A DNA stretch of 5,553 nt from IMG/VR virus record IMGVR_UViG_2541047097_000025; one strand, written 5' to 3'. The first letter of the stretch is position 1; each line of letters opens with the position of its first letter. The DNA comes from a virus. Lineage: Duplodnaviria > Heunggongvirae > Uroviricota > Caudoviricetes. The notes beneath the pieces are model-generated. The model was not told the origin of the DNA, ran no database searches, and saw nothing but the letters and a program-made list of their open reading frames with translations. Below are positions 4,499 to 5,553 of this stretch, piece by piece. The translations under genes and the position numbers were made by a program.

Positions 4499-4650
4499 CG
4501 TTTTGCTCTCCTGCATCTCTTTGCTGCTCGTCGTGCCGCTGCAATACCGGTATGGCGGCGCTTTGGTGTCGGGATGATGTTCTTTGCAATTAGCGCAGAA
4601 GCCCAAAAACGAGTCGGATACGGTAACAAGCCGATACATGCCACACGCAT
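4495..4650 (-). CDS. Hypothetical small protein (51 aa), hydrophobic N-terminus and Arg/Lys-rich tail
   Basis: Not in the ORF track. ATG 4648-4650 overlaps the Ead-like stop as TAATG and has an SD (GAGGTGA) about 5 nt upstream. The stop TGA at 4495-4497 overlaps the next ATG. The last 12 codons use rare Arg codons, so the model is tentative. Confidence 0.4.
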   Translation of the reverse strand: MRVACIGLLPYPTRFWASALIAKNIIPTPKRRHTGIAAARRAAKRCRRAKR

Positions 4651-5423
4651 TACTCACCTCTTTTGATGCGAATGCCAGCGGCGCGCTCGGCTTCACTTTG
4701 TTCCCAAAACCACTTGTGAAGCGCCATAAGCTTTTCGTCAATCGGTGCATATTTGCGATTAAAGTAGGCCTGAGCATCTTTCTCAGATTCGTCCGGTAAT
4801 TCGCCAGGGCCAAACAGTGTGTTATAAATCCATGCTAGTCCGCTCTTAGCGTCGCCAGTTGCCTGCCATTCGATAATGGCAGCCTGCATGACCAGAATGT
4901 TTTTCCCGATTAATAGGTCCAGTTCTTTGTACCGGTTGCGGATGTATGCATTCTCGCTTTGTAATTTTGCGTTGCGCTTTTCTGAGGCTTCAAGTAACGC
5001 CTGCTTATCGCGTAGAGCTTCTTCCAGTTCAGCAACATGGCATTCACTATCAATAAGGTTGTTCTCTGCTGCTTCAAGCTCAACACGCAGCTTCCCAACC
5101 GTAAGCGCAATCTCCTCGTTCTCCTGGTCGCGGCGTTTGATGTATTGCTGGTTTCTTTCCTGTTCATCCAGCAGTGCCAGCACGGTAGCCGGGTTAGCCT
5201 CTGCTATGAATTCAGCGTTTGCATAAGCCTGATCATCTGATTCAATCAGGCAGTTAACATGACATTCCGCAATCACGCCACCGGGTTCTCCTTTCCATTT
5301 TTGGCAAACAAAAACTCCTGTTAAATTGCCGTGCTGGTTAACAGATGTATGCCCTACGATGTAGCTTCCTTTAGTTGCTTTCTCTGCCTTTTCACGCAGT
5401 GCCTGATAGTCAATCTTGCTCAT
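4650..5423 (-). CDS. Ead/Ea22-like family protein with central coiled-coil region
   Basis: The N-terminal region (ALREKAEKATKG...DDQAYANAEFIAEANPATVLALLDEQE) matches the Ead/Ea22-like domain of lambdoid early-left genes from memory. It is followed by a long Glu/Leu/Lys-rich helical stretch. I place the start at ATG 5421-5423 rather than the TTG at 5447. Confidence 0.78.
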   Translation of the reverse strand: MSKIDYQALREKAEKATKGSYIVGHTSVNQHGNLTGVFVCQKWKGEPGGVIAECHVNCLIESDDQAYANAEFIAEANPATVLALLDEQERNQQYIKRRDQENEEIALTVGKLRVELEAAENNLIDSECHVAELEEALRDKQALLEASEKRNAKLQSENAYIRNRYKELDLLIGKNILVMQAAIIEWQATGDAKSGLAWIYNTLFGPGELPDESEKDAQAYFNRKYAPIDEKLMALHKWFWEQSEAERAAGIRIKRGE

Positions 5424-5553
5424 TTTTCTCTTCACTCCGGTATACAAGGATTACTACGCCCCCTCTGCTAATTGCGCGAGCTGGATCCCCTGGTTCCATG
5501 CCGTCAATACCGAAGGCTTCGAAAAATGCATCTATTGCCTTTTGGCGTTGCTC
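5410..5553 (-). CDS. 3' end of an upstream ORF running off the window edge (partial)
   Basis: This is the only minus-strand frame open from 5553 to a TGA at 5410-5412. It overlaps the Ead-like start by 14 nt. The fragment has no recognisable domain. Confidence 0.35.
   Translation of the reverse strand, partial: EQRQKAIDAFFEAFGIDGMEPGDPARAISRGGVVILVYRSEEKNEQD

What the first reader, a model, noticed from the sequence alone, without database searches (positions are those of the whole stretch)
4650..5553. Ead/Ea22-like gene preceded by a partial ORF overlapping its start
The Ead/Ea22-like product has the typical N-terminal domain followed by a long coiled-coil region and ends in RGE-stop, supplying the SD for the next gene. 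A partial upstream ORF overlaps its start by 14 nt. This anchors the window in the lambdoid early-left region.
Basis: partly seen in the sequence, partly recalled or inferred. Interest (0 to 1): 0.22.

Follow-up and report, generated by a model that had tools for sequence, protein, structure and literature searches.

The report
Ea22 gene at prophage deletion joint
This is the already-studied Ea22 "pro-lysogeny" gene of a Shiga-toxin phage preceded by the tail of a DUF4752 gene. The pair sits where the two ends of the prophage appear to have recombined, which in sister genomes leaves a 6.6-kb stump in place of the roughly 61-kb toxin phage.

Summary
Window 4650-5423 (-) encodes a 257-aa Ead/Ea22 protein (PF13935, E 1.5e-35). 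It is identical to phage 933W Ea22 (L0069) except at residues 1, 3 and 5. It has a long helical heptad region and ends RGE-stop. Window 5410-5553 (-) is the last 47 codons of a 94-aa DUF4752 protein (PF15944, E 1.3e-15) and overlaps the ea22 ATG by 14 nt. The RGE codons (AGAGGTGAG) plus TAATG do start a next gene. That gene is a conserved but mostly unannotated 51-aa ORF (4495-4650).

The twist concerns position. In 933W/Sp5 the gene upstream of ea22 is the TraR-like orf73, not DUF4752. Window 5409-5553 matches only the attR-end module of the same prophage, and 4600-5268 matches only the left arm. The switch lies inside a 140-bp identical block, part of a known 436-bp repeat.

Sister O157:H7 contigs differ by 1 mismatch in 10.9 kb. 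They read rutG-attR-AntA-TraR-DUF4752-Ea22-...-xis-int-attL-wrbA, a 6,586-bp remnant lacking about 54 kb including stx2. The window itself stops at a contig end, so two readings are not excluded: a natural O145-type arrangement, or a misassembly. The genes are ordinary; the structural variant is modestly interesting.

The parts
4650..5423 (-). Chimeric ead/ea22 gene (257 aa plus TAA). The 5' 15 nt are of the attR-end copy type, followed by a 140-bp shared block, and the remainder is the left-arm (933W L0069) copy.
   Evidence: PF13935 at E 1.5e-35. The protein differs from 933W L0069 only at residues 1, 3 and 5. The exact protein is WP_021502038.1, seen on 6 contigs.
5410..5553 (-). The 3' half (47 codons plus TGA) of a DUF4752 gene. 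It overlaps the ea22 ATG by 14 nt and is cut by the contig end at 5553.
   Evidence: PF15944 at E 1.3e-15, profile positions 42-84 of 84. The full 94-aa ORF is present in L004, L005 and L007. The window is the terminal 5553 nt of AVRW01000035.1.
5269..5408 (.). Crossover interval: a 140-bp block identical in the left-arm ea22 and the attR-end ea22 copy of Sakai/933W-type prophages. With a Xuzhou21-type right copy the interval would be 321 bp (5088-5408).
   Evidence: Alignments.
4974..5409 (.). The 436-bp direct repeat annotated as 'arrangement c' by the depositors of Stx2 phage II. It occurs once in region IV (left arm) and once in region II (attR end).
   Evidence: Features of AP005154.1, mapped to the window through the coordinates of hit H7.
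5409..5553 (.). Segment that matches only the attR-end module (ECs_1248/1249 of Sp5) and not the left arm of 933W/Sp5.
   Evidence: The segment 5380-5553 is 100% identical to Sakai 1307115-1307288.
5424..5438 (-). Ribosome-binding region of ea22 inside the DUF4752 coding sequence. GGAG lies at 5438-5435 and an A/G-rich GAAGAGAAAA run precedes the ATG.
   Evidence: Read directly from the sequence. Function is inferred.
4648..4661 (-). Junction AGAGGTGAG-TAATG. The RGE codons form the Shine-Dalgarno sequence, and the ea22 stop overlaps the ATG of the next gene.
   Evidence: The same design (AAAGGAGAG-TGA-n-ATG/GTG) ends the next two annotated genes. The junction GGAGGTGAGTAATG is conserved in diverged phages.
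4495..4650 (-). orf51, a 51-aa small protein gene with a hydrophobic N-terminus and a very basic C-terminus. It is translationally coupled at both ends (TAATG and ATGA).
   Evidence: The frame is kept open across a 21-nt indel in four diverged phages, while the alternative frame is broken. It is annotated in phiV10 (p49), Dewey and Stx2 phage F004. It matches phrog_13831 at E 1.7e-27 and is seen on 221 contigs.

Best explanation
The feature is the ea22 gene of a 933W/Sp5-type Stx2a prophage integrated in wrbA of E. coli O157:H7. It has been joined by homologous recombination to the DUF4752-TraR-antirepressor module that normally lies at the other (attR) end of the same prophage.

**How the joint arose.** The prophage carries two direct copies of the ea22 5' region, the 436-bp 'c' repeat. 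One copy is in the exo-xis region and the other is next to attR. A crossover inside their 140-bp identical core gives this hybrid gene. In the prophage state it removes the roughly 54 kb between the copies, including stx2. A 6.6-kb remnant is left: attR-AntA-TraR-DUF4752-Ea22-orf51-...-xis-int-attL. The same product would arise if the recombination happened in the circular phage genome and the resulting int/attP mini-circle then integrated.

**The protein.** It is essentially 933W Ea22: an N-terminal Ead domain, a long coiled coil that oligomerises it, and a helical C-terminal domain. For lambda and Phi24B, deletion of ea22 was reported to favour lytic development, which is the basis for calling Ea22 pro-lysogenic (PMC7093339, PMC10834534). 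Its target is unknown.

**Translation.** It is coupled to the neighbours. The ea22 ATG lies 14 nt inside the DUF4752 3' end. The terminal RGE codons (AGAGGTGAG) plus TAATG form the ribosome-binding site and start of the next small gene, orf51.

**Shown:** gene identities, the overlaps, the chimeric mosaic pattern, and the remnant structure in sister contigs.

**Inferred:** the recombination event itself, expression of ea22 from the ant or wrbA promoter now that pL is gone, and the protein's function.
For: - **Identity to known prophages.** Window 1-5425 is 99.9% identical to wrbA prophages of many O157:H7 genomes. The last 128 nt do not follow those left arms.
- **Match to the attR end.** Window 5380-5553 is 100% identical to the attR-end module of Sp5 (Sakai ECs_1248/ECs_1249) and of VT2-Sakai, the PA phages and Stx2 phage II.
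- **Clean mosaic.** Every informative site from 5553 to 5409 is of the right-copy type. Every one from 5268 to 4600 is of the left-copy type. None matches neither (alignment).
- **The repeat is documented.** The GenBank record AP005154 annotates it as 'arrangement c', in regions II and IV.
- **Sister contigs.** The exact hybrid protein occurs on 6 contigs. L004 (K1795), L005 and L007 (K2324) carry it on contigs of 45-116 kb that run rutG-AntA-TraR-DUF4752-Ea22-...-xis-int-wrbA-yccJ-agp. The window's own contig is identical to L004 and L007 except for 1 mismatch in 10,904 nt.
- **att sites.** Cores TTGAAAC sit at both ends, and the element is 6,586 bp. The deleted length is 54,365 bp on VT2-Sakai coordinates.
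- **Independent assemblies.** They date from 2013, 2014 and 2020 and share the joint.
- **Protein features.**
- **Coupling signals and orf51.**
Against: - The window stops at a contig end (5553), so its own continuation is unseen.
- None of 5,426 complete E. coli genomes or 50,697 phage records holds the whole 4300-5553 stretch at full coverage. The joint is known only from short-read drafts, where a 140-bp repeat could be mis-threaded.
- Intact prophages with a natural TraR-DUF4752-Ea22 order exist (O145 RM11626, IMG/VR L021/L022). They are 99.0% identical to window 4653-5553.
- L006 (2009EL2109) shows the remnant followed by int-attP-AntA. This is either a tandem of remnant plus full prophage, or a graph path through excised phage DNA.
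- I could not explain why the window's contig breaks at 5553.
Confidence: 0.72

Rival explanations
1. Natural mosaic in an intact phage. The source strain carries a complete Stx (or other lambdoid) prophage whose exo-xis region has the order exo-...-TraR-DUF4752-Ea22, as in O145 prophages. The window is then simply the left arm of a full phage and no deletion occurred.
For: The complete genome of O145 RM11626 has exactly this order at wrbA, with the same DUF4752 protein (WP_001024844.1) and a 256-aa Ea22 of the same C-terminal type. IMG/VR contigs L021 and L022 show the same arrangement with exo, bet and gam upstream. The window's contig ends before the decisive sequence.
Against: O145-type sequences differ from the window at 9 of 902 positions over 4653-5553. 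The combination of Sp5-left plus Sp5-right explains every base. Of the 5 contigs shown that carry the exact hybrid protein, 4 have AntA upstream rather than exo, and the fifth is the truncated window contig. The window's contig matches the remnant-bearing contigs at all but 1 of 10,904 nt.
Confidence: 0.13
2. Assembly artefact. The strains carry a normal full-length Sp5-type prophage. Short-read assemblers walked through the shared 140-bp (or longer) repeat from the left-arm ea22 body into the attR-end DUF4752 copy, which created a chimeric contig and a false remnant.
For: The joint lies exactly in a repeat. It is absent from all complete (mostly long-read) genomes. The window's contig terminates 145 nt past the repeat. 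L006 contains an attP junction, which could reflect graph paths through excised phage DNA.
Against: The same joint appears in at least five assemblies submitted in 2013, 2014 and 2020. I infer from the spread of dates and submitters that different pipelines were used. Three of the contigs span the whole remnant with long unique chromosomal flanks on both sides. A 140-bp repeat is shorter than typical paired-end inserts and is normally resolved; this last point rests on general knowledge, not a test here.
Confidence: 0.12

Closest known systems
Ea22 of phage 933W (L0069, AAD25414.1) and lambda Ea22 (NP_040612.1)
   Same: The 257-aa protein is identical to 933W Ea22 except at residues 1, 3 and 5. 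It shares the Ead_Ea22 N-terminal region, the central coiled coil and the terminal K/RGE (PMC7093339). It has the same position upstream of the variable genes that lead to xis and int.
   Different: The start is ATG with MSKID, the DUF4752-linked variant, instead of GTG with VSEIN overlapping the TraR-like orf73 stop. The C-terminal domain is all-helical (AF2 pLDDT 88.7, no PDB fold match). It is unrelated to the solved mixed alpha-beta CTD of lambda Ea22 (PMC10834534). In sister contigs the gene is detached from exo-bet-gam, which lie upstream of it in the intact left arm, and so, I infer, from the pL promoter that drives the exo-xis region (PMC8614690).
DUF4752 family (PF15944; WP_001024844.1), with the DUF4752-Ea22 gene pair of O145 and other Stx prophages
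   Same: The 47-aa fragment matches the C-terminal half of the family profile. The same 14-nt overlap with ea22 occurs in O145 RM11626 and Xuzhou21.
   Different: Here the copy derives from the attR-end module of the O157 prophage rather than from a continuous exo-xis operon. No function is known for the family.
Truncated or remnant Stx prophages of O157:H7 (for example the truncated yehV/mlrA prophages of Shaikh and Tarr 2003, as cited in PMC8309913 and PMC9505746)
   Same: The integration site is occupied and both phage-chromosome junctions and int are retained, but the stx gene and most of the phage are missing.
   Different: The site is wrbA and the phage is Stx2a. The deletion end-points are defined to a 140-bp internal direct repeat inside two ea22 paralogues, and an intact hybrid ORF is regenerated. 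I found no description of this particular remnant in the papers searched.
Repeat 'arrangement c-d-e / c-f-e' of Stx1 and Stx2 converting phages (records AP005153 and AP005154)
   Same: The window's 4974-5409 is repeat 'c'. The DUF4752 segment corresponds to 'f'.
   Different: In those records 'c' of the left arm (region IV) is followed by 'd'. In the window the left-arm body is followed by 'f', which is the recombinant order.

Membership tests
Ead/Ea22-like family (PF13935) | Significant match to the Ead_Ea22 profile above the curated cut-off | tested here: met
   E 1.5e-35, 123.2 bits against a cut-off of 27, over residues 2-138. The N-terminal 78 residues alone give E 1.3e-13.
Ead/Ea22-like family (PF13935) | Central coiled-coil region following the N-terminal segment | tested here: met
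   AF2 helices 78-125 and 130-189, with pLDDT 76-88 over residues 90-160. Heptad periodicity holds one register from about 92 to 170. Coiled-coil prediction for the near-identical 933W protein is published in PMC7093339.
Ead/Ea22-like family (PF13935) | C-terminal K/R-G-E tripeptide | tested here: met
   The protein ends IKRGE-TAA. Lambda Ea22 ends IKGE-TGA.
Ead/Ea22-like family (PF13935) | Position in the conserved exo-xis cassette directly downstream of orf73 (TraR-like) | tested here: not met
   The gene directly upstream is DUF4752. TraR lies one gene further in sister contigs, and exo is absent there. This is a contextual feature rather than a sequence-defining one.
Ead/Ea22-like family (PF13935) | Pro-lysogenic phenotype and tetrameric assembly | not testable with these tools
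   Known only from experiments on lambda and Phi24B Ea22 (PMC7093339, PMC10834534).
DUF4752 (PF15944) | Match to the family profile above the cut-off, with the full-length ORF open | tested here: met
   The fragment gives E 1.3e-15, 57.6 bits against a cut-off of 27, over profile positions 42-84 of 84. The 94-aa ORF is open in L004, L005 and L007. The full-length protein matches phrog_667 at E 7.6e-43.
Prophage remnant formed by recombination between internal direct repeats | Sequence on each side of the joint matches a different copy of the repeat, with the switch inside an identical block | tested here: met
   Sites from 5553 to 5409 are all of the right-copy type and sites from 5268 to 4600 are all of the left-copy type. 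The identical block is 140 bp.
Prophage remnant formed by recombination between internal direct repeats | The interior of the prophage is absent, and both att sites and chromosomal flanks are contiguous | tested here: inconclusive
   Met in sister contigs L004, L005 and L007. It is not visible for the window's own contig, which ends at 5553. There is no read-level or long-read confirmation.
Dpd defence system protein DpdH (PADLOC PDLC02890) | Homology to a genuine DpdH (BrxC-like large ATPase) and location in a dpd gene cluster | tested here: not met
   Only a 127-position PADLOC model hits residues 145-243, at E 1.4e-36. Canonical DpdH/I is described as BrxC-like (bioRxiv 10.1101/2025.09.15.676423). 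No dpd genes are nearby. Pfam and NCBIfam give nothing for this domain. I treat it as a doubtful model label.

The most novel reading that the evidence does not exclude
The two ea22 'c' repeats that flank int-attP in 933W/Sp5-type Stx2a phages may act as a built-in break point. Under this reading they let the prophage shed about 54 kb, including stx2, in one step. What remains is a 6.6-kb int/xis/att-competent mini-element that still carries AntA, a TraR-like RNA-polymerase regulator, DUF4752, Ea22 and orf51. The host wrbA promoter or the ant promoter would now read into these genes. The stump would persist in circulating O157:H7 and would serve as a landing pad for new Stx phages, as the tandem arrangement in strain 2009EL2109 suggests. 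That would give a defined molecular route for loss and regain of stx2a.
Probability: 0.2. Interest if true: 0.5.

Novelty: new member of a known kind. Interest (0 to 1): 0.24.

Why it matters
The genes themselves are ordinary. Ea22 of 933W has been characterised, and DUF4752 is a catalogued family. Three small points have practical or explanatory value.

1. If the remnant is real, it defines to within 140 bp a route by which O157:H7 can lose stx2a while wrbA still scores as 'occupied' at both junctions. This is relevant to insertion-site typing and to the loss and regain of Shiga toxin genes.
2. The K/RGE C-terminus of Ea22 proteins is described in the literature as being of unknown significance (PMC7093339). 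Here it has a simple nucleotide-level reading. It is the Shine-Dalgarno sequence plus stop/start junction for the next gene, and the same design ends the two following annotated genes.
3. That next gene, orf51, is conserved but missing from most annotations, including 933W and PGAP.

Tried and rejected
- **PDB sequence search.** A search with Ea22 gave only spurious low-complexity or coiled-coil hits.
- **Single-sequence AF2.** The full protein gave a usable helix, but the model was poor for the N-terminal domain (pLDDT below 50 over residues 16-82).
- **The search for homologous proteins.** The 120 hits listed were all at least 96% identical, so they gave no alignment diversity.
- **C-terminal domain.** I modelled it from representatives-library hits instead. 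A fold search of that model against the PDB found nothing with E <= 0.001.
- **PADLOC 'DpdH' hit.** I could not substantiate it and rejected it as a functional assignment.
- **Alternative 109-aa ORF.** This CxxC-containing ORF starts at 4638 in the frame of orf62. I rejected it because that frame is interrupted in diverged homologues while the orf51 frame stays open.
- **Contig break at 5553.** I tried to explain it as a branch point between DUF4752 copies. Sp15 of Sakai has no DUF4752. The O145 and Sp5-right copies stay identical for about 270 nt past 5553. The break remains unexplained.
- **Junction pattern scan.** A pattern intended to be hybrid-specific found only O145-type natural phages in IMG/VR.
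- **Literature.** Searches for a described wrbA remnant of this structure found none.
- **Source strain.** The accession of the source assembly (AVRW01) was not found in the papers held, so the strain name is unknown.
- **Promoter scan upstream of AntA.** It gave one good consensus match (TTGACA-18-CATACT, L004 8587-8616). The number of sites found was no greater than in shuffled sequence.
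Full report
**What is in the sequence**

On the minus strand an ORF runs from the ATG at 5423 to the TAA at 4652-4650 and encodes 257 aa. It matches Pfam Ead_Ea22 (PF13935) at E 1.5e-35, far above the curated cut-off, over residues 2-138.

Upstream, a frame is open from the window edge (5553) for 47 codons to a TGA at 5412-5410. It overlaps the ea22 ATG by exactly 14 nt. This fragment matches the C-terminal half of Pfam DUF4752 (PF15944, profile positions 42-84 of 84, E 1.3e-15).

**Context of the window**

The window reads as follows, all on the minus strand:
- wrbA (1-579)
- int (576-1910)
- a DUF1233 excisionase (1939-2238)
- a string of small genes including DUF551
- ea22

It is 99.9% identical over 1-5425 to the wrbA-integrated Stx2a prophage of many O157:H7 genomes and to 933W, VT2-Sakai and the PA phages. 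The Ea22 protein differs from 933W L0069 only at residues 1, 3 and 5: M/V, K/E and D/N.

**The unexpected part**

In 933W/Sp5 the gene directly upstream of ea22 is the TraR-like orf73. Its stop overlaps a GTG start, giving VSEINYQ.... This is the conserved cassette described for lambda, Phi24B and 933W (PMC8614690).

The window departs from those left arms in the first 15 nt of ea22 (five substitutions, 5409-5423) and loses similarity altogether upstream of 5425. Window 5380-5553 is 100% identical to a second place in the same phages. That place is the module next to attR: Sakai ECs_1248, a frameshifted 72-aa ea22 copy, plus ECs_1249, a DUF4752. They are followed by a second TraR-like gene and an antirepressor.

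A three-way alignment gives a clean mosaic:
- Every informative site from 5553 to 5409 is of the attR-end type.
- Every site from 5268 to 4600 is of the left-arm type.
- None is of a third type.
- The switch lies within a 140-bp block (5269-5408) that is identical in both copies.

The depositors of Stx2 phage II annotated this duplication as repeat 'arrangement c' (436 bp) in regions II and IV. It maps to window 4974-5409. In Xuzhou21 the attR-end copy is a full-length 299-aa ea22 that is identical to the window down to 5088. The usable homology can therefore be 321 bp.

**What lies beyond 5553**

The window is the terminal 5553 nt of contig AVRW01000035.1 (GCA_000462565.2), so position 5553 is a contig end. 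An exact-sequence look-up of the hybrid protein found it on only 6 contigs. The native 933W protein is on 997 contigs, on a count that is capped at 1000.

Three of the contigs share one structure. They are K1795 and K2324, both O157:H7 from the CDC set (PMC4125765), and GCA_012070335.1. Each is 45-116 kb long and reads rutG - attR - AntA (209 aa) - TraR/DksA (73 aa) - DUF4752 (94 aa) - Ea22 (257 aa) - ... - xis - int - attL - wrbA - yccJ - agp.

The window's contig equals L004 and L007 at all but 1 of 10,904 nt. The att cores (TTGAAAC) bracket 6,586 bp. On VT2-Sakai coordinates the two repeat copies are 54,365 bp apart. That is the amount missing, and it includes stx2.

A fourth contig (2009EL2109) shows the remnant followed by int-attP-AntA-TraR-DUF4752-short ea22-hok. 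This is a tandem of remnant plus full prophage, or a path through excised phage DNA. Tandem integration next to a resident prophage has precedent in O157 (PMC2669165).

**Caveats and rivals**

No complete E. coli genome (5,426) and no phage record (50,697) contains the whole joint. All evidence for it comes from short-read drafts, and a repeat-mediated misjoin cannot be excluded without reads.

A natural TraR-DUF4752-Ea22 order also exists in the genuine exo-xis region of other prophages. Examples are O145 RM11626 and two IMG/VR contigs. These are 99.0% identical to window 4653-5553, whereas Sp5-left plus Sp5-right accounts for every base.

My estimates are:
- real recombination remnant, 0.72
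- natural intact mosaic, 0.13
- assembly artefact, 0.12

**How the genes work**

- An N-terminal Ead segment.
- A long helix: AF2 gives 78-125 and 130-189 with pLDDT 76-88 over residues 90-160. A heptad register is maintained from about 92 to 170. This agrees with published coiled-coil predictions for 933W Ea22 (PMC7093339).
- A C-terminal domain. Modelled from 72 diverse homologues, it is all-helical (pLDDT 88.7). It has a conserved WIxNxLxGPGELP loop, shows no PDB fold match, and is found in 389 representative clusters, often behind other coiled coils.

Experimental work on lambda and Phi24B deletion mutants assigns Ea22 a pro-lysogenic role, and full-length lambda Ea22 was found to be a tetramer, with an unknown host target (PMC7093339, PMC10834534). 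I adopt that as the most likely function.

In the remnant the gene has lost exo, bet and gam upstream of it and so, I infer, its link to pL. Expression would have to come from the antirepressor module's own promoter. One TTGACA-18-CATACT match lies upstream of AntA, but the scan found no more sites than in shuffled sequence. Alternatively it could come from the host wrbA promoter, whose first 17 codons read into the module at attR. This step is inference.

**The RGE-stop claim**

The junction AGA GGT GAG TAA TG is followed in frame by a 51-aa ORF (4650-4495). Its stop overlaps the start of the next annotated gene (ATGA).

In phiV10, Dewey, TL-2011c and PhiR49_2 the same junction (GGAGGTGAGTAATG or GTG) precedes a 58-60-aa homologue. 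The homologue carries a 21-nt in-frame insertion, while the alternative frame acquires a stop. The ORF is annotated in phiV10, Dewey and Stx2 phage F004 and matches phrog_13831.

The next two genes also end (K)GE-stop, as AAAGGAGAG-TGA, one base before the following start. The literature lists the K/RGE motif as being of unknown significance (PMC7093339).

One counter-example tempers this. Lambda Ea22 keeps AAAGGAGAG-TGA but has no start codon directly after it. There the sequence may be a relic or a module boundary.

**Verdict**

The genes are known. The chimeric joint and the 6.6-kb wrbA remnant are an apparently undescribed instance of a known kind of event, of modest interest. Confirmation at read level is needed.

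Noticed in passing
window 4495-4650 (-): orf51 is a 51-aa ORF with a hydrophobic N-terminus and an Arg/Lys-rich C-terminus. It fills the 'intergenic' gap left by the 933W and PGAP annotations. It is coupled TAATG/ATGA at both ends, is conserved with a 21-nt indel in diverged phages, matches phrog_13831 and is seen on 221 contigs. Its function is unknown.
   Followed up: partly
window 4093-4661 (-): Three consecutive genes end in (K/R)GE-stop: ea22, orf62 (4310-4498) and orf71 (4093-4308). The nucleotides A(A/G)AGG(A/T)GAG sit immediately before the next start codon, so the tripeptide looks like a by-product of an embedded Shine-Dalgarno sequence. Lambda Ea22 keeps the motif without a following start.
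   Followed up: partly
window 4653-4961 (-), Ea22 residues 155-257: The C-terminal domain is a widespread mobile all-helical module: 389 representative clusters at E <= 0.001, a conserved WIxNxLxGPGELP loop, and no PDB fold match. In some relatives it is fused behind a Lar restriction-alleviation domain. PADLOC model PDLC02890, labelled 'DpdH', hits it at E 1.4e-36, which I could not explain and suspect is a mislabelled short model.
   Followed up: partly
window 548-579: The int stop overlaps the start of the rebuilt wrbA ORF (ATGA at 576-579). The phage arm supplies a new N-terminus (MINHILRH...) for WrbA next to the 7-bp att core (548-554), so wrbA stays open in the lysogen.
   Followed up: no
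L006 8300-20774 (strain 2009EL2109, JHGC01000025.1): The remnant is followed by int-attP-like junction-AntA-TraR-DUF4752-short ea22-hok-BOF-large LPD protein. This is an apparent tandem of the 6.6-kb remnant and a full prophage. The two AntA-to-ea22 segments are identical for 1,854 nt.
   Followed up: partly
window 5553 (= end of contig AVRW01000035.1): The window ends at a contig end, 145 nt beyond the repeat block. Sp15 of Sakai has no DUF4752, and the O145 and Sp5-right copies do not diverge there, so the reason for the break is unknown.
   Followed up: partly
L004 8250-8320 (attR side, outside the window): The original wrbA start and its first 17 codons sit at attR. They read into phage DNA (stop after MKH), about 535 nt upstream of the antirepressor gene. 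Host wrbA transcription may therefore enter the AntA-TraR-DUF4752-Ea22 module.
   Followed up: no
L015 5300-6199 (Xuzhou21) versus L003 3826-4044 (Sakai): The attR-end ea22 paralogue is an intact 299-aa gene in Xuzhou21. In Sakai it is a 72-aa frameshifted stub (a 1-nt deletion at the window-equivalent position 5220). The second copy is therefore decaying in some lineages.
   Followed up: no
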